Positions 32,843-43,092 of a DNA stretch of 64,000 nt are shown here, piece after piece (position 1 is the first letter of the stretch; each line of letters starts with the position of its first letter). The position numbers and the translations under genes were made by a program. The notes under the pieces are model-generated. The model saw only the letters and a list, made by a program, of their open reading frames with translations. It made no database searches and was not told the origin of the DNA. The DNA lies in the IMG/VR virus record IMGVR_UViG_3300017742_000001, positions 28,487-92,486 of that record; one strand, written 5' to 3'. The stretch is from a virus.

Positions 32843-32858
32843 ATGGCTAAATAATAGT

Positions 32859-37177: not shown

Positions 37178-38767
37178 ATGGCAAAGAGTTTAGATGGCGT
37201 TCAGATTAAGAAGGCCCATAAAAAAGAAAAATATACACTTGAAGAAATCAAGCACTTAGAAAAGTGTATGGATCCTATTAACGGACCATTATATTTCTGT
37301 GAAAACTTTTTAACAATTCAACACCCTACCAAAGGTTCAATGAAATTTGTTCCTTACGGATTTCAACGAGAACTTATACAAGCATACGCAGAAAATAGAT
37401 ACTGTGTTGCTATGTTACCAAGACAGATGGGCAAAACAACTTGTGCTGCTGGTTATTTGTTATGGTATACAATGTTTACTCCTGAAGCACAGGTATTAAT
37501 TGCTGCACACAAATATACAGGTGCACAAGATATTATGAATAGATATAGATTTGGGTATGAAACTTTGCCAGACTTTATTCGTGCAGGAATCTATACATAC
37601 AACAGAAACACAATTGAATTTGATAACGGTAGTAGAATACAAGCAACTACTACAACAGAAGATACTGGACGTGGTAAATCACTTTCATTAATATACTGTG
37701 ATGAGTTTGCATTTGTGCAACCACCAGAAAAAGCCAAAGAGTTTTGGACTGCACTATCTCCTACACTGTCAACAGGTGGTAAAGCAATTGTTACAAGTAC
37801 ACCAAACTCAGATGAAGATCAGTTTGCTATGATTTGGGCAGAAGCAAATAAAAAGTTTGATGAACACGGCAATGATAAAAAAGTAGGAACAAACGGATTT
37901 TTTCCTTACTTTGCTCCTTGGGTGGAACATCCAGATAGAGACGAAGACTGGGCAAACCAGGAACGTGCAAAGATCGGCGAAGAAAGATTCCGTCGTGAGT
38001 TTGATTGCGAATTCCTAATCTTTGATGAAACATTAATTAACAGTGTTAAACTAGCAACACTTGAAGGCAAAGAACCAATTGCTAATACAGGTCAAACACG
38101 TTGGTACAGTAAAATTAATCCTAAGGCTACACATTTAATTGCACTTGATCCTAGTTTAGGTACAGGTGGCGATTATGCTGCTATCCAGATATTTGAAATG
38201 CCTGCAATGAAGCAAGTTGGAGAATGGCGACACAACCTAACACCAGTACAGCAACAAATACGTGTATTACAAGATATTCTAAAATATATTGCTAACGAGC
38301 AAACAGCAGCAGGCAATAATAACCCTAATATCTACTATAGTGTAGAAAACAATACTATTGGTGAAGCAGCACTAGTTGTTATACAAGATATTGGTGAAGA
38401 GAACTTTAACGGATTATTTTTAAGCGAACCTATTAGAAAAGGACACGTAAGACGTTATAGAAAAGGGTTTAATACTACACACAAAACTAAAATTACAGCG
38501 TGTAGTTTGTTTAAAAATGCACTAGAAAAAGATAAGATGCAAATATCAAGTAAACCATTGATATCTGAACTTAAGACATTTGTAGCAACAGGCGTAAGTT
38601 ACAATGCTAAAACAGGTGAACACGATGATCTAGTATCAGGAGTACTATTGATTTTGCGTATGGCAGATCAACTAGCAAACTGGGATCCTAAAATATATGA
38701 AAAAATGACGGAGAGAATGACCGACGACGAGTATCCATTGCCGATATTCGTATCCGGCGGCTTTTGA
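37178..38767 (+). CDS. Terminase large subunit (T4 gp17-like)
   Basis: PRQMGKTT Walker A, YCDEFAF Walker B, TSTPN, DPSLGTGGDY, HDDLV nuclease motifs. Confidence 0.95.
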   Translation: MAKSLDGVQIKKAHKKEKYTLEEIKHLEKCMDPINGPLYFCENFLTIQHPTKGSMKFVPYGFQRELIQAYAENRYCVAMLPRQMGKTTCAAGYLLWYTMFTPEAQVLIAAHKYTGAQDIMNRYRFGYETLPDFIRAGIYTYNRNTIEFDNGSRIQATTTTEDTGRGKSLSLIYCDEFAFVQPPEKAKEFWTALSPTLSTGGKAIVTSTPNSDEDQFAMIWAEANKKFDEHGNDKKVGTNGFFPYFAPWVEHPDRDEDWANQERAKIGEERFRREFDCEFLIFDETLINSVKLATLEGKEPIANTGQTRWYSKINPKATHLIALDPSLGTGGDYAAIQIFEMPAMKQVGEWRHNLTPVQQQIRVLQDILKYIANEQTAAGNNNPNIYYSVENNTIGEAALVVIQDIGEENFNGLFLSEPIRKGHVRRYRKGFNTTHKTKITACSLFKNALEKDKMQISSKPLISELKTFVATGVSYNAKTGEHDDLVSGVLLILRMADQLANWDPKIYEKMTERMTDDEYPLPIFVSGGF

Positions 38768-38778
38768 TAAATACTTAT

Positions 38779-41691
38779 ATGGACGCAACAAACAATATAG
38801 CAACAGACTTATTTTTTAAGGTTAGAAGCAGATTTTCTAATCTAAAACTTGGTGACGATTCAGGGCAAATTACAATTAATCCTGAAATGGCACGTTTTTT
38901 CGACTTTGATTATGTCGAGGAAGACAAAAAAATTGGACACGTAAGCATCAGTCTTGCTGAGCCTAACTCAATGAAAGTATACTTTTCAAATGGTATTACT
39001 GAGGGTATGGACAGGGATCAAAAAGATGGTTGGTATGGGTTTTTAAGAGAATTAAGAAAATTCTCAAAACGTAGACTATTAGCATTTGATACAAGAGACA
39101 TTGCAAAAGATAATTTAGATAAACGAGATTATGCTTTTCTAAGTCAATATGCAAACCCAGCGTCGGACAATGATACAATTACAAAACCTGTCGGAGAGAG
39201 TGTAATGAATGAAAGTAATTTATATGGAACTAAAACACAAAGTTTCCAAAAACTAGAAAATACAAAACTTATTATTAAGCATAGTAAAAAACTTGCTGAT
39301 GATATGGAACTAAAGCCAGGTGCTAGATCAAGAAATATATCTGCACTATTTGTACAAAATGAATCAGGGGAAAGATTTAAATATCCTTTCGTTCATTTAG
39401 CAGGCGCAAGAGCAATGCAGCGACACGTAGCAAACGGTGGCGCACCATATGATTCAATAGGTGAATCATTAATTAAAATGAGTGAAGAAATTGCTCAACT
39501 AAAAACATTTACAGGCTATGTTGTACGTAACGATTTGATGAACTCCGACACTAATCGAATTGTTGAACGTAGTAAAGTACAACTTGACACTCTTAGAGAA
39601 AGAATTGCAAAATTATCCAAACAGTCATACTACGAGGCTTTTAAAGAATCATTTGAGGCAAGAGCAGACGTTGAAGTAGACGATACGCAGATGGAACAAT
39701 ACAAAGATATGTTTACTGTTAAGAACTTTAAAGAAGACTTAACAGATGTATTTCCAGTGATTCATAGATTAATGAAAGAAGAAGAAACAGTAGGCTATGA
39801 CGACATAGTCGGTATGACAGCAGAGGCTGATGATAACGTAGAAGTTTCAGATGAAATGAATGGAATGATTTCCGATTTGGTTGAAAAATTCTCTAAGTTC
39901 AGAGGCGGCAACGGAGACAGATTACCAGACGGTTATATACAGTGGGCATTGAACTCAGGCATTACTACAGACTTTGTTGAAGAAAATGAGGCTGAAGCAA
40001 TGAAGGAAAAATACGGCGAAGAAGAATTTGAAAATGATCCGCTGGGACACGTTGACGAAATGCCAATTACAAAAGCATTTATGGATGAAATTGAAAAAAT
40101 TACAGGCAATGATGACATTGATACGAATGCAAGAATTATTGATAAAGTTCAGTCAGGTGACGCTGACGAATCTGCATCAACAGACGAGATGGCAAAATTT
40201 GAGGCTTGGGTAGATGCACTGGGCGAAGAAAGTCCAATTCAAATTGCAGACCAAGAAGAAAAGGCAGATATGATTAGAAGTTTAAGTGAACTTACTAGTC
40301 AAGAATTTACTGCCGGTGTTGATGGTACTAATGCTATTACAAGTTTAGAAGGTATCATTGACGATCCTAAATTAGAGCAAGATATCAAAGCAAAAGCAAC
40401 TGAAGATACAACAGCAGATGTAAGGCCTTTAGTTAAAGCGTGGATTGAAGAAAATGCACCAGACTTATTAGGCGAATTAGATTTTGGCGATATGGCAGAA
40501 GAACCTGCTGCTGAAGAACCTGCTGCTGAAGGGATCACAGATAAATTTATGAAAGATCCATCAATGGGTATGAACAAGTATGGACTTGCTGCTATTCAAA
40601 AGGACGGTATGTTCTTTAGTATTAAAGATAAGAAAATTACAGGCGGACCATTTGACAGTATTGATGAACTTAAAAAGCATCAAGAAGAATTAATGAACAA
40701 AGACTCCGATGATGACTACAAAGATACGCAACCAGAGTTAAAAGGTGGCGGTAGTGCATTCAAAGGTTTCAAAGGCAAAGATCCTGAAGCAGATGAACTA
40801 AATGATATTATGAAACTGTCAGGCGAATCATATAGCAAAACACAAGAAGCCGGCGATCCATACAGACAATCCAGTCTGCATATTGGACAAACGAATGATC
40901 CGATAATGTTTAAAGGCAAAGAAATTGATCTTGACAAACTAGACTATGATATGCAAGATATTAGTGACGGCATATATGAATTAAATGCTCCTGTGTATTA
41001 CACAGACGGTACAGAAGTTGACGATTCAGATATGGCAGAGTTAGAAGAACTTCCAGAACTAAACGATTATATCTACCAAGATTATATGGACAGACAAGCA
41101 CCACAAGAAGGAGCAGTTTCAGAAGGTGGCAATGCTTGGGATATGGCACTTACAGGCGGAATGGAAATTATTTCAAACTGTGATGACCAAGAAGAATGCA
41201 TTAAGCAACTAGAAGCAGAAATAACAGGCGGCAAAGATGCTGATGATGCATATGCTGATATGATTACCAAAGACTTCATCGAAAAAATTAAAAAGCACGG
41301 ACTTGAAAAAGTAAAACGTGATGTAGACGCTGAAGATATAATGGGTGAGCCTGTTGATTTAGAAGGACAAGAAACTGAAGGCAACGAATACGGCGATAAA
41401 GTTTCAACTCTTAAAGCACAAGGTGCTAAGAAAGGCACTAAGTTTAAAACATCAGATGGTGAAGAGCATACACTAGAAGGTTTAGCAGAATTTATTAAAT
41501 CTTTTTATGATGAATCTACAAATACTTTTCCAAAAGGCCCAGAAGGTGTAGCAACAATGGTAGGCAAGAAGTTCGGTGAACAGGCTGAGCAGGTTGCACG
41601 TAAGATGGTAGAAAGAATGGCTCCTGCACAAGAACAAGGCGCAGAAGAACTAGAAGAACTAGGTAGAATTAAAGATCTTATTAAATTTTAA
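38779..41691 (+). CDS. Large acidic hypothetical protein (~970 aa), probably virion/internal
   Basis: Long ORF; start MDATNN at 38779, 5 nt after TAAATA; very acidic C-terminal two-thirds; EEPAA tandem repeat at 40498-40527. Confidence 0.6.
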   Translation: MDATNNIATDLFFKVRSRFSNLKLGDDSGQITINPEMARFFDFDYVEEDKKIGHVSISLAEPNSMKVYFSNGITEGMDRDQKDGWYGFLRELRKFSKRRLLAFDTRDIAKDNLDKRDYAFLSQYANPASDNDTITKPVGESVMNESNLYGTKTQSFQKLENTKLIIKHSKKLADDMELKPGARSRNISALFVQNESGERFKYPFVHLAGARAMQRHVANGGAPYDSIGESLIKMSEEIAQLKTFTGYVVRNDLMNSDTNRIVERSKVQLDTLRERIAKLSKQSYYEAFKESFEARADVEVDDTQMEQYKDMFTVKNFKEDLTDVFPVIHRLMKEEETVGYDDIVGMTAEADDNVEVSDEMNGMISDLVEKFSKFRGGNGDRLPDGYIQWALNSGITTDFVEENEAEAMKEKYGEEEFENDPLGHVDEMPITKAFMDEIEKITGNDDIDTNARIIDKVQSGDADESASTDEMAKFEAWVDALGEESPIQIADQEEKADMIRSLSELTSQEFTAGVDGTNAITSLEGIIDDPKLEQDIKAKATEDTTADVRPLVKAWIEENAPDLLGELDFGDMAEEPAAEEPAAEGITDKFMKDPSMGMNKYGLAAIQKDGMFFSIKDKKITGGPFDSIDELKKHQEELMNKDSDDDYKDTQPELKGGGSAFKGFKGKDPEADELNDIMKLSGESYSKTQEAGDPYRQSSLHIGQTNDPIMFKGKEIDLDKLDYDMQDISDGIYELNAPVYYTDGTEVDDSDMAELEELPELNDYIYQDYMDRQAPQEGAVSEGGNAWDMALTGGMEIISNCDDQEECIKQLEAEITGGKDADDAYADMITKDFIEKIKKHGLEKVKRDVDAEDIMGEPVDLEGQETEGNEYGDKVSTLKAQGAKKGTKFKTSDGEEHTLEGLAEFIKSFYDESTNTFPKGPEGVATMVGKKFGEQAEQVARKMVERMAPAQEQGAEELEELGRIKDLIKF

Positions 41692-41731
41692 TGATTTTAC
41701 GTATTGATTTTTTACGTAAAGATGTTTAAAT

Positions 41732-41766
41732 AATAGTGTAGTAGGAAACTGCTACACTATTTTTTT
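41732..41766 (+). terminator. Rho-independent terminator-like hairpin (GAAA loop) upstream of pqqA
   Basis: AATAGTGTAGTAG-GAAA-CTGCTACACTATT followed by a T run. Confidence 0.8.
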
Positions 41767-41786
41767 CACTTTATAAAGGAAACATT

Positions 41787-41858
41787 ATGTGGACAAAGCC
41801 TCAAGCAATAGAAATGAGATTCGGCTTCGAAGTAACGATGTACATAGCCAACCGATAG
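41787..41858 (+). CDS. pqqA: Pyrroloquinoline quinone precursor peptide PqqA (23 aa)
   Basis: MWTKPQAIEMRFGFEVTMYIANR*, with W-x-x-P and R-x-G-F-E-x-T-x-Y (E-x3-Y); AAGGA RBS upstream; absent from the ORF track. Confidence 0.93.
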   Translation: MWTKPQAIEMRFGFEVTMYIANR

Positions 41859-41930
41859 ACAAAGAAGTAGAAGAACACAAAGAAGTAAAGGTAGACATAC
41901 GCAAACTAATTGAAACATTAGATTGCGAAT

Positions 41931-41960
41931 AAAGAAAGGATCTTCGGATCCTTTTCTTTT
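41931..41960 (+). terminator. Terminator with C(UUCG)G loop after pqqA
   Basis: AAAGAAAGGATC-TTCG-GATCCTTTTCTTTT. Confidence 0.9.
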
Positions 41961-41994
41961 GGCTAAACAAATCTATTTTAAATTAAAAATAGAC

Positions 41995-42023
41995 TTGACG
42001 GGCTAAATAAAAGAGCATATAAT
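41995..42023 (+). promoter_or_regulatory. Sigma70-type promoter with an embedded late motif, upstream of gp32
   Basis: TTGACG-N17-TATAAT; TAAATA at 42004-42009 inside the spacer. Confidence 0.75.
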
Positions 42024-42084
42024 ACATAGTATGCATTAGGCATAAAATGACATTTTTTATTAGGCAAACAAAGGAGGCTAACAA

Positions 42085-43092
42085 ATGGCATCATTAGCAG
42101 AAATTCGTGCAAAACTGCAGGAAGCAAACAATCGCTCAACTGGTAATTCTACTGGAGGCGGTGACAACGCAATTTACCCACATTGGAATATGCAAGAAGG
42201 CAGAGAAGCCGTGGTAAGATTCTTACCCGACGGTAACACTGACAACACATTCTTTTGGGTAGAACGTGCGATGATTAAATTACCATTCGCAGGTATTAAA
42301 GGTGAAACGGATAGTCGTAATACTATTGTGCAAGTTCCGTGTGTGGAAATGTACAATGACGGTACTACTTGTCCAATTCTATCTGAAGTACGTGGTTGGT
42401 TTAAAGACAAATCACTAGAAGATATGGGTCGTAAGTATTGGAAAAAACGTTCATATATCTTCCAAGGGTTTGTAAACGACGATCCTCTTAACGAAGAGAG
42501 AACACCAGAAAATCCTATTCGTAGGTTTATTATTGGTCCACAGATTTATCAGATCATTAAAGGTGCTTTGATGGATCCGGAGTTGGAAGAGTTACCAACT
42601 GATTTCCTTCGTGGTGTTGACTTTAGAATCAAGAAAACATCAAAAGGTGGTTATGCTGACTACTCAACATCACAATGGTCACGTAAAGAGCGTGCATTGG
42701 CTGAGAATGAGAACGCAGCAGTTGAACAACACGGTTTGTTTAACTTATCAGACTTCCTTCCTAAGAAGCCAGGCGAAGTTGAGCTTAAGGTTATGAAGGA
42801 AATGTTTGAAGCATCTGTAGATGGTGAAGCATATGATGCAGATCGTTGGGGACAATATTTCCGTCCAGCGGGTATGCAACAGCGTACAGGAGATCCGAAT
42901 AAGGCACCACAAACGCCAGCGGCATCAGCACCTGTAACTGCTCCGACTGCTCCGGCAGCACCAGTAGCAACTGCTCCAGTAGTAGAAGCAACTGCGGCTC
43001 CAGCGGCAGCACCAGAAACAGTAACTACTGAAGACAATGGATCGGGTCGTGCGCAAGACATCCTTGCAATGATTCGCAACCGTCAGCAATAA
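42085..43092 (+). CDS. Single-stranded DNA-binding protein (T4 gp32-like)
   Basis: VRFLPD, C..Y....CPI, YWKKRSY, G.DF.IKKT.KGGYADYS.S.W; AAGGAGG RBS. Confidence 0.85.
   Translation: MASLAEIRAKLQEANNRSTGNSTGGGDNAIYPHWNMQEGREAVVRFLPDGNTDNTFFWVERAMIKLPFAGIKGETDSRNTIVQVPCVEMYNDGTTCPILSEVRGWFKDKSLEDMGRKYWKKRSYIFQGFVNDDPLNEERTPENPIRRFIIGPQIYQIIKGALMDPELEELPTDFLRGVDFRIKKTSKGGYADYSTSQWSRKERALAENENAAVEQHGLFNLSDFLPKKPGEVELKVMKEMFEASVDGEAYDADRWGQYFRPAGMQQRTGDPNKAPQTPAASAPVTAPTAPAAPVATAPVVEATAAPAAAPETVTTEDNGSGRAQDILAMIRNRQQ

What the first reader, a model, noticed from the sequence alone, without database searches (positions are those of the whole stretch)
41787..41858. Phage-encoded PqqA, a stand-alone PQQ cofactor precursor peptide
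Seen: a 23-codon ORF (MWTKPQAIEMRFGFEVTMYIANR) below the ORF-track cutoff, with an RBS, between the virion module and gp32. Known: PqqA is the ribosomal precursor whose Glu and Tyr (E-x3-Y) are crosslinked by PqqE/PqqD to make PQQ. One peptide is consumed per PQQ, so it is a substrate rather than an enzyme. No pqqB-E genes occur in this window. Inference: the phage feeds substrate into the host PQQ pathway to sustain PQQ-dependent dehydrogenases (methanol, alcohol or glucose) during infection. The MWTKP..EMRFGFEVTMY form recalls beta/gammaproteobacterial, e.g. methylotroph, PqqA and may point to the host. It would be a 72-bp auxiliary metabolic gene that standard gene callers miss.
Basis: partly seen in the sequence, partly recalled or inferred. 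Interest (0 to 1): 0.9.

Follow-up and report, generated by a model that had tools for sequence, protein, structure and literature searches.

The report
Phage-borne PQQ precursor gene pqqA
A large uncultured marine phage carries an intact 23-codon copy of pqqA, the small peptide that bacteria use up to make the cofactor PQQ; the gene is real and under selection, but phage pqqA has been published and this scan has met it many times.

Summary
Window 41787-41858 (+) encodes MWTKPQAIEMRFGFEVTMYIANR behind an AAGGA ribosome-binding site. It scores 43 bits on Pfam PqqA (cut-off 21.1) and 41.4 bits on TIGR02107 (cut-off 20), and keeps the Glu-x3-Tyr pair.

It lies between a 975-aa virion protein and a gp32-like protein in a fragment of a jumbo myophage. 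The fragment is 92.5 kb, estimated 26% complete; the nearest cultured relatives are PA5oct, Phosso and Atu_ph07.

No pqqB, C, D or E and no PQQ-dependent dehydrogenase occurs in the 92.5 kb.

The core EMRFGFEVTMY is a Methylophilaceae signature. It also occurs, always as an intact stand-alone ORF among phage genes, in at least 120 IMG/VR contigs of several unrelated phage lineages. Nine cultured Methylophilales or Methylophilaceae phage records carry it unannotated.

Against syntenic relatives, synonymous sites are saturated (pS 0.77-0.88) while pN is 0.10-0.19.

The cassette carries an upstream element shared with host pqqA copies.

The most likely role is to supply the consumable substrate to the host PqqB-E enzymes. 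That step is inferred, not shown.

It is not new: Coutinho et al. 2020 reported viral PqqA, and this scan holds 169 notes on it from other DNA. I rate it a new member of a known kind, of moderate interest.

The parts
38764..41691 (+). Upstream neighbour: 975-aa virion structural protein, last gene of the terminase/virion block
   Evidence: PHROG 13484 virion structural protein, E 4.4e-10; homologues lie upstream of gp32 in about 65 related loci
41689..41705 (+). Host-type pqqA upstream element TAATGATTTTACGTATT (core ATGATTTT at 41691-41698, 96 nt before the ATG)
   Evidence: The core ATG[AG]TTTT lies at -130..-50 in 45 of 110 distinct viral pqqA copies, against about 1% of background windows. 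It corresponds to the near-palindrome CT[CA]ATGAAAATCAT[GT]AG and its ..ATGATTTTACGTAG variants upstream of Methylophilaceae pqqA. Among gp32-slot relatives it is present only in the pqqA-carrying L003 and L078
41727..41732 (+). TAAATA, candidate phage late promoter / -10-like box for pqqA (inferred)
   Evidence: TAAATA-N5-ATG heads 8 gene starts in the window against 2.3 expected, with 0 of 100 shuffles reaching 8. The same TAAATAATAGT string occurs at 32848. L003 keeps TAAATA at the matching place. No transcript start was measured
41732..41766 (+). 13-bp hairpin plus T7 run: intrinsic terminator of the virion operon, overlapping the candidate pqqA promoter
   Evidence: Terminator scan; fold -19.3 kcal/mol, z -5.3; the same hairpin occurs in L078
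41776..41780 (+). Shine-Dalgarno AAGGA, six bases before the ATG
   Evidence: Sequence; AAGGAG-type words are the commonest 8-mers upstream of the viral copies
41787..41858 (+). pqqA, 23 codons, MWTKPQAIEMRFGFEVTMYIANR; crosslink residues E15 and Y19
   Evidence: PF08042 43 bits (cut-off 21.1), TIGR02107 41.4 bits (cut-off 20); pS 0.77-0.88 against pN 0.10-0.19 versus syntenic copies
41934..41955 (+). Terminator hairpin GAAAGGATCTTCGGATCCTTT plus T-run that closes the pqqA cassette
   Evidence: Terminator scan; fold; homologous hairpin in L003 and, at the same place ahead of the gp32 promoter, in the relatives without pqqA that were read
41995..42023 (+). Sigma-70-type promoter of the gp32-like gene (context, not part of the cassette)
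   Evidence: TTGACG-17-TATAAT, 11 of 12; conserved across the relatives read
42085..43092 (+). Downstream neighbour: gp32-like ssDNA-binding protein
   Evidence: PHROG 1192, E 1.5e-65

Best explanation
This is a functional phage copy of pqqA. It was acquired from a Methylophilaceae-type methylotroph as a small cassette (upstream element, leader, Shine-Dalgarno, 23 codons, terminator). It sits in a variable cargo slot between the virion genes and gp32 of a marine jumbo myophage. PqqA is consumed one molecule per PQQ, and Methylophilaceae themselves keep 3-12 pqqA copies for a single pqqB-G set. The phage copy therefore most likely keeps precursor peptide flowing to the host's existing PqqD/PqqE/PqqB/PqqC enzymes once host transcription falters. 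That would sustain PQQ-dependent methanol oxidation, and so energy supply, during infection. Shown here: gene identity, phage context, absence of the other pqq genes in the DNA available, purifying selection, host-family signature, and recurrence in many phages. Inferred: transcription from its own promoter, processing by host enzymes, and a benefit to the phage.
For: Identity. Phage context. Alone: no PqqB/C/D/E or PQQ-dependent dehydrogenase in the 92.5 kb record. There was also no PqqB/C/E in the 200 viral loci fetched, none in the complete genomes of Melnitz (141.5 kb) and Venkman (38.6 kb), and no PqqE in five further pqqA-bearing viral records, one 100% and one 84% complete. Selection: against gp32-selected syntenic copies pS is 0.77-0.88 and pN 0.10-0.19. 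All 118 viral 23-codon copies have an intact ATG and stop, with 104 distinct DNA sequences but 38 peptides, and 62 DNA versions of the 33-nt core. Host link: 120 of 120 genome hits to the EMRFGFEVTMY pattern are Methylophilaceae or unclassified beta/proteobacterial MAGs apart from one Acidovorax MAG. The two commonest viral peptides are identical to the two commonest bacterial ones. Nine phage records isolated on Methylophilales or Methylophilaceae hosts carry it. Host precedent: most bacterial copies are themselves orphans, and 3-12 pqqA per genome against one pqqB-G is reported (PMC4109929). Cassette: the shared upstream element and flanking terminators. Published precedent: viral PqqA as an auxiliary gene in Lake Baikal methylotroph phages (PMC7678222).
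Against: There is no direct evidence of translation, of processing by PqqD/PqqE, or of any effect on PQQ. The record is about a quarter of the genome, so pqqB-E or a PQQ-dependent enzyme could lie in the unseen part. PQQ is a stable cofactor, so a need for new synthesis in one infection cycle is not obvious. This allele (QAI...IANR) is identical to no sampled host copy (at most 81% DNA identity), so the exact host is unknown. A genome of roughly 350 kb would be large for tiny OM43 cells. A good terminator sits directly upstream and the candidate promoter is weak by sigma-70 rules.
Confidence: 0.7

Rival explanations
1. The phage has a fuller PQQ programme. pqqB-E, or a phage PQQ-dependent dehydrogenase such as the viral methanol dehydrogenase of Lake Baikal phages, lies in the unseen three quarters of the genome, and pqqA serves that phage-encoded machinery.
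For: The record is estimated 26% complete. Coutinho et al. found PqqA together with a viral methanol dehydrogenase in one population. A 2026 survey lists viral pqqD and pqqE.
Against: None of these genes occurs in 92.5 kb here, in 200 related or pqqA-bearing viral loci, or in the complete Melnitz and Venkman genomes.
Confidence: 0.1
2. The gene is a neutral passenger: a recently captured scrap of host DNA with no role for the phage.
For: It sits in a slot that holds different cargo in different relatives, and only 3 of about 65 assessable gp32-slot relatives have it.
Against: Synonymous sites are saturated against the syntenic copies while the peptide is kept. The gene shares at most 81% DNA identity with any sampled host copy, so it is not recent. 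The ORF is intact in all 118 viral copies across several unrelated phage lineages.
Confidence: 0.07
3. The peptide is a decoy. It titrates PqqD/PqqE or otherwise blocks host PQQ synthesis as part of host takeover.
For: No direct evidence; a leader-bearing peptide could in principle compete for PqqD.
Against: Both crosslink residues and the whole core are kept. In other phages the peptide is identical to the host's own, which would make it a substrate rather than an inhibitor. Cutting the energy supply of a methylotroph host would hurt phage yield.
Confidence: 0.04
4. The selected unit is not a peptide gene but DNA or RNA: a recombination or attachment site matching host pqqA, or a structured RNA.
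For: The cassette has hairpins on both sides. There is a weak Rfam IMES-4 match over the leader (25.3 bits, E 0.12).
Against: The substitution pattern is codon-wise, with third positions free and amino acids kept. No integrase lies next to it in any context. The coding stretch folds no better than shuffles (z +0.79). The IMES-4 match is below threshold and absent in relatives.
Confidence: 0.03

Closest known systems
Virus-encoded PqqA of Lake Baikal methylotroph phages (population VP_266; Coutinho et al. 2020, Microbiome 8:163, PMC7678222)
   Same: Both are PqqA precursor peptide genes on uncultured phage genomes predicted to infect Methylophilaceae, and both are read as auxiliary metabolic genes that support methanol oxidation.
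   Different: The published case is from fresh water and sits in a genome that also encodes a methanol dehydrogenase. This one is marine. It lies in a jumbo PA5oct/Phosso-like myophage fragment with no dehydrogenase in 92.5 kb.
Orphan (non-operon) pqqA copies of Methylophilaceae chromosomes (3-12 per genome; Beck et al. 2014, PMC4109929)
   Same: They share the 23-codon length and the EMRFGFEVTMY core. They stand alone without pqqB, carry the same upstream near-palindromic element and end with a terminator.
   Different: This copy is on a phage, between virion and replication genes. Its allele (QAI...IANR) matches no sampled bacterial copy. Its upstream element lies at -96, within the usual phage spacing of about -100 to -70, rather than the bacterial -104 to -141 seen in complete genomes.
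Unannotated pqqA in cultured Methylophilales/Methylophilaceae phages (Venkman, Melnitz, MEP301/401/402, P19250A)
   Same: These are stand-alone 23-codon pqqA genes, 74-82% identical at the peptide level, missed by annotation. The complete Melnitz and Venkman genomes have no pqqB/C/E.
   Different: They are different phage families (Kyanoviridae myophage, small sipho- and podo-like phages) with different genomic positions. In Venkman-type genomes the gene is antisense to all its neighbours.
Classical phage auxiliary metabolic genes such as cyanophage psbA
   Same: In both cases a host-derived gene for a rapidly turned-over or consumed component of the host's energy metabolism is carried alone by phages of several lineages.
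   Different: psbA encodes a protein that works as such. PqqA is a substrate that is destroyed to make a small-molecule cofactor. Expression and benefit are shown experimentally for psbA (my own knowledge) and not for pqqA.

Membership tests
PqqA (Pfam PF08042 / NCBIfam TIGR02107) | Score above the curated HMM cut-offs over the full model | tested here: met
   PF08042 43 bits against 21.1, model positions 1-19 of 19; TIGR02107 41.4 bits against 20, positions 1-21 of 21
PqqA (Pfam PF08042 / NCBIfam TIGR02107) | Conserved Glu and Tyr in E-x3-Y, the residues crosslinked by PqqE | tested here: met
   E15-V-T-M-Y19 in the translation; kept in the three syntenic copies found through gp32 alone
PqqA (Pfam PF08042 / NCBIfam TIGR02107) | Short peptide (about 20-40 aa) with an N-terminal leader of the W-x-K-P type ahead of the core | tested here: met
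   23 aa, MWTKP...; same length in 118 of 124 viral copies and nearly all bacterial copies
PqqA (Pfam PF08042 / NCBIfam TIGR02107) | Placement at the head of a pqqBCDE operon | tested here: not met
   No pqqB-E in the record. This is not disqualifying: most Methylophilaceae pqqA copies are orphans too (PMC4109929)
PqqA (Pfam PF08042 / NCBIfam TIGR02107) | Binding by PqqD, crosslinking by PqqE and conversion to PQQ | not testable with these tools
   This needs biochemistry or complementation; the peptide is below the 30-residue limit of the complex predictor
Phage auxiliary metabolic gene | Lies within a bona fide phage genome with phage genes on both sides | tested here: met
   Terminase and virion protein upstream; gp32, UvsX and UvsY downstream; nearest relatives are jumbo myophages
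Phage auxiliary metabolic gene | Host-derived metabolic gene kept under purifying selection in phages | tested here: met
   Host-family signature; pN/pS about 0.11-0.25 against syntenic copies and 0.27 outside the ascertained core across the viral set
Phage auxiliary metabolic gene | Expressed during infection | tested here: inconclusive
   Contigs of one metatranscriptome library (X18), from a relative about 93-95% alike, cover 41790-41971. The exact-match RNA libraries X15 and X16 cover the neighbours but not pqqA. Contigs cannot show transcripts, and DNA carry-over is possible

The most novel reading that the evidence does not exclude
Phage pqqA is not just a captured ORF but a captured regulated cassette. 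Phages of unrelated lineages keep the host's pqqA-specific near-palindromic operator at a fixed distance from their promoter. The viral copy would then be switched by the same host factor that governs the host's many pqqA copies. Precursor-peptide supply would be the limiting, phage-targeted step of methylotroph energy metabolism, and pqqA would be a practical host-range marker for methylotroph phages.
Probability: 0.35. Interest if true: 0.55.

Novelty: new member of a known kind. Interest (0 to 1): 0.35.

Why it matters
PQQ is the cofactor of methanol dehydrogenase, the entry enzyme of carbon and energy metabolism in Methylophilaceae such as the marine OM43 clade. A phage gene that is a consumable substrate rather than an enzyme is an unusual kind of auxiliary gene. 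Its recurrence in many phage lineages suggests that precursor supply limits PQQ synthesis in infected cells. In practice, the 72-base gene is missed by gene callers and by the annotation of the cultured phage genomes I checked. Searching for it gives a cheap host predictor for uncultured methylotroph phages. This particular instance adds a jumbo-phage lineage and a marine setting, but it does not change the picture published in 2020.

Tried and rejected
1. Megablast of the region against GenBank phages found no match.
3. I asked whether the stretch 41859-41932 after the stop is the remnant of a displaced gene. Only L003 shares it, over 11 residues at E 1.6, so I dropped the idea.
4. No separate N- or C-terminal halves occur in the 2.5 kb upstream of gp32 in 80 related loci. 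It is not seen in this lineage.
5. Rfam: IMES-4 scored 25.3 bits (gathering 48, E 0.12) over the leader. There was no such match in 18 other pqqA loci at gathering threshold or in five loci at E up to 5. I treat it as chance.
6. I asked whether the 11-mer core of the upstream element marks a wider regulon. The 20 occurrences away from pqqA in five genomes are mostly inside ORFs and lack the full palindrome, so there is no sign of a wider regulon.
7. Metatranscriptome contigs: the exact-match libraries X15 and X16 have no contig over 41718-41978. This is no evidence against expression.
8. The sigma-70 scan called no promoter ahead of pqqA.
9. The whole window has no tRNAs.
10. Structure and complex prediction were not used: the peptide is under the 30-residue limit and a fold of a 23-mer would say nothing.
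11. The statement 'every cultured Methylophilales phage has it' could not be verified. NCBI taxonomy lists further named phages (HIM624-A, MEP431-434, MG-MTP1, RSA-MFP1) that did not appear. I could not tell whether they are in the collection.

Full report
**Observation.**
- The ORF is exactly as described. ATG at 41787 and TAG ending at 41858 give 23 codons, MWTKPQAIEMRFGFEVTMYIANR, with AAGGA six bases upstream.
- It matches Pfam PqqA at 43 bits (cut-off 21.1) over the whole model, and NCBIfam TIGR02107 at 41.4 bits (cut-off 20).
- A six-frame HMM search of the whole 92,486-base record returns this single place at E 3.7e-11. Chance is excluded.
- The crosslink pair is present as E15-x3-Y19.

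**What the DNA is.**
- The window is the right-hand 64 kb of a linear IMG/VR virus record that CheckV rates 26% complete.
- The neighbours are a terminase large subunit, a 975-aa virion protein, then (after pqqA) a gp32-like ssDNA-binding protein, UvsX and UvsY.
- The nearest cultured phages are jumbo myophages: Pseudomonas PA5oct (287 kb), Sinorhizobium Phosso (469 kb), Agrobacterium Atu_ph07 (490 kb) and Cronobacter GAP32. Terminase identity reaches 55% and gp32 identity 54-57%. An expected genome of roughly 350 kb is therefore plausible.
- Fourteen DNA runs labelled marine, seawater or viral metagenome, from about nine studies, hold at least 92% of the sampled words of this stretch. This is a recurrent marine phage.

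**Is pqqA alone?**
- HMM searches of the whole record find no PqqB, PqqC, PqqD or PqqE and no PQQ-dependent dehydrogenase.
- I took PqqB, C and E from two Methylophilaceae operons and confirmed them by NCBIfam. A tblastn of these against the record and 200 viral loci gave no hit, while the same queries hit 17-27 of the 120 bacterial loci.
- The complete genomes of the cultured carriers Melnitz (141.5 kb) and Venkman (38.6 kb) have no PqqB, C or E.
- Five further pqqA-bearing viral records, one rated 100% and one 84% complete, have no PqqE.
- 'Stand-alone' is thus shown for the DNA in hand and for complete genomes of other carriers. It is not shown for the unseen three quarters of this phage.

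**Relatives and selection.**
- Eighty viral loci were fetched through gp32 alone. The space between the virion gene and gp32 ranges from 170 to about 2,500 bases and holds different small cargo genes or none.
- pqqA fills that slot only here and in three other contigs: L002 (also fetched as L180), L003 (as L106) and L078 (as L200).
- Against those three copies, which were not selected for pqqA, synonymous sites are close to saturation (pS 0.77-0.88). Non-synonymous change is low (pN 0.10-0.19), and E and Y are kept.
- Every hit is an intact ORF of 23-25 codons. Among the 118 copies of 23 codons there are 104 distinct DNA sequences but only 38 peptides. Outside the ascertained core, pN/pS is 0.27.
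- Only 24 of these loci share any protein with this record.
- The others fall into several unrelated phage backgrounds. These include exonuclease/Sak/Erf/endolysin/DNA polymerase genomes in which pqqA is antisense to all neighbours, a major-head-protein context, and RegA/Hsp20 T4-like genomes.

**Host.**
Nearly all hits are Methylotenera, Methylophilus, Methylobacillus, Methylovorus, Ca. Methylopumilus, other Methylophilaceae, or unclassified beta/proteobacterial MAGs.
- The two commonest viral peptides are identical to the two commonest bacterial ones.
- A tblastn of the window's peptide against GenBank phages found 12 records. Nine were isolated on Methylophilales or Methylophilaceae hosts: MEP301, MEP401, MEP402, Venkman, four Melnitz records and P19250A.
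- In six of the twelve records nothing is annotated at the match. In Melnitz the only annotated feature there is an antisense 'hypothetical protein'. The Melnitz paper never mentions pqqA.
- The host of this phage is therefore most likely a marine Methylophilaceae.
- The allele here (QAI...IANR) equals no sampled host copy, with at most 81% DNA identity. A genome of roughly 350 kb would also be large for tiny OM43 cells (my own knowledge of OM43). The exact host stays open.

**Why a lone pqqA makes sense.**
- In the bacterial loci most copies are orphans. Of 129 copies, 26 are followed by pqqB, 19 sit too close to a locus end to judge, and 84 stand alone.
- Beck et al. 2014 report 3-12 pqqA copies against one pqqB-G set per Methylophilaceae genome (PMC4109929).
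- The host family itself therefore treats precursor supply as the thing to multiply.
- It is established biochemistry (cited in PMC7678222, refs 50-51) that PqqA is consumed stoichiometrically.
- The step from there to 'the phage tops up substrate for host enzymes' is inference.

**Cassette anatomy.**
- *Terminators.* A 13-bp hairpin with a T7 run (41732-41766; -19.3 kcal/mol, z -5.3) ends the virion operon. A second terminator (41934-41955) precedes the strong gp32 promoter at 41995-42023.
- *Upstream element in phages.* Directly after the virion gene's stop lies TAATGATTTTACGTATT (41689-41705). Its core ATG[AG]TTTT is found at -130 to -50, mostly -100 to -70, in 45 of 110 distinct viral copies, against about 1% of background windows.
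- *Upstream element in hosts.* In Methylophilaceae the matching element is the near-palindrome CT[CA]ATGAAAATCAT[GT]AG, with natural ..ATGATTTTACGTAG variants.
- *Specificity.* In five complete or near-complete genomes, 10 of 30 occurrences of the 11-mer core lie 104-141 nt before a pqqA. Only those ten, plus one intergenic site without pqqA, carry the full palindrome.
- *Link to the cassette.* Among the gp32-slot relatives, only the pqqA carriers L003 and L078 have this post-stop sequence. It therefore travels with the cassette.
- *Candidate promoter.* About 36 bases downstream of the core start is TAAATA (41727-41732). TAAATA-N5-ATG heads eight gene starts in this window against 2.3 expected, which supports an earlier first-reader note that TAAATA is this phage's late promoter.
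- *Predicted transcript (unproven).* A start about six bases after that box (near 41738) would fall inside the 5' arm of the hairpin. Such transcripts would lack the full terminator stem and run into pqqA.

**Expression.**
- Contigs of one metatranscriptome library (X18), from a relative about 93-95% alike, cover 41790-41971.
- The two libraries with exact matches cover the neighbours only.
- Contigs cannot show transcripts, so expression remains open.

**Known or new.**
- Coutinho et al. 2020 reported a viral PqqA next to a viral methanol dehydrogenase in Lake Baikal phages predicted to infect Methylophilaceae, and read it as an auxiliary metabolic gene.
- A 2026 survey lists viral pqqA, pqqD and pqqE among phosphorus-cycling genes.
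- This scan already holds 169 notes on phage pqqA from at least 113 other genomes. I re-derived their main points independently here.
- One claim in those notes, that every cultured phage of this host group has the gene, I could not verify. Taxonomy lists further named phages that did not appear in my search.
- Another claim, an intron-split copy in relatives, is not seen in this lineage.

**Verdict.**
- This is a genuine, selected, stand-alone phage pqqA in a new (jumbo, marine) phage background: a new member of a known kind.
- The most novel reading left open is that the phage cassette keeps the host's pqqA-specific operator and is therefore under host control.

Noticed in passing
window 41689-41705; loci L202-L353: A pqqA-specific near-palindrome lies upstream of pqqA in Methylophilaceae. 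Its form is CT[CA]ATGAAAATCAT[GT]AG, with ..ATGATTTTACGTAG variants, and it sits 104-141 nt before pqqA in five complete or near-complete genomes. Its core lies about 70-100 nt upstream in phage copies of unrelated lineages. It looks like a binding site for an unknown host factor.
   Followed up: partly
L346:1486-1520: A perfect CTCATGATTTTCATGAG palindrome lies in an intergenic region of a Methylophilus genome, followed by a terminator-like hairpin but with no pqqA ORF. It may be the remnant of a lost pqqA copy.
   Followed up: partly
window 17612, 26547, 28652, 32848, 35332, 37167, 38768, 45371: TAAATA-N5-ATG occurs at eight gene starts with no Shine-Dalgarno between (8 observed, 2.3 expected, 0 of 100 shuffles reach 8). 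This fits a late promoter that gives leaderless mRNAs, as another first-reader note on this genome proposed.
   Followed up: partly
L006, L016, L039, L080 (between the virion gene and gp32): In relatives the same slot holds a small ORF with a signal-peptide-like N-terminus and a Lys/Ala/Pro-rich tail, with its own promoter-like TATATA box and hairpins. The slot is a hotspot for self-contained cargo cassettes.
   Followed up: no
window 41711-41784: There is a sub-threshold Rfam match to the orphan marine RNA motif IMES-4 (25.3 bits, gathering 48, E 0.12) over the pqqA leader. It was not reproduced in relatives or in other pqqA loci.
   Followed up: yes
L322:3961-4066 (Melnitz MZ577097.1 76100-76205): In the Melnitz record the pqqA place is annotated only as an antisense 'hypothetical protein' (MelnitzEXVC044M_152). 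The sense pqqA sits just before tRNA-Leu and is unannotated.
   Followed up: partly
L304: One contig from the bacterial genome collection carries pqqA in the phage 'major head protein' context, sharing 15 phage protein clusters. It is probably a phage contig binned into a MAG, or a prophage.
   Followed up: no
window 42024-42084 and relatives: The gp32 promoter and a leader with GCATTAGGCATA-like repeats are conserved across many relatives that otherwise differ in the slot. This may be a gp32 autoregulatory operator.
   Followed up: no
GenBank CAKLQF020000010.1 108210-108275: Two 'Acinetobacter phage MD-2021a' records give a weak PqqA-like match (59% identity, E 0.1). If real, phage pqqA would extend beyond methylotroph hosts.
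   Followed up: no
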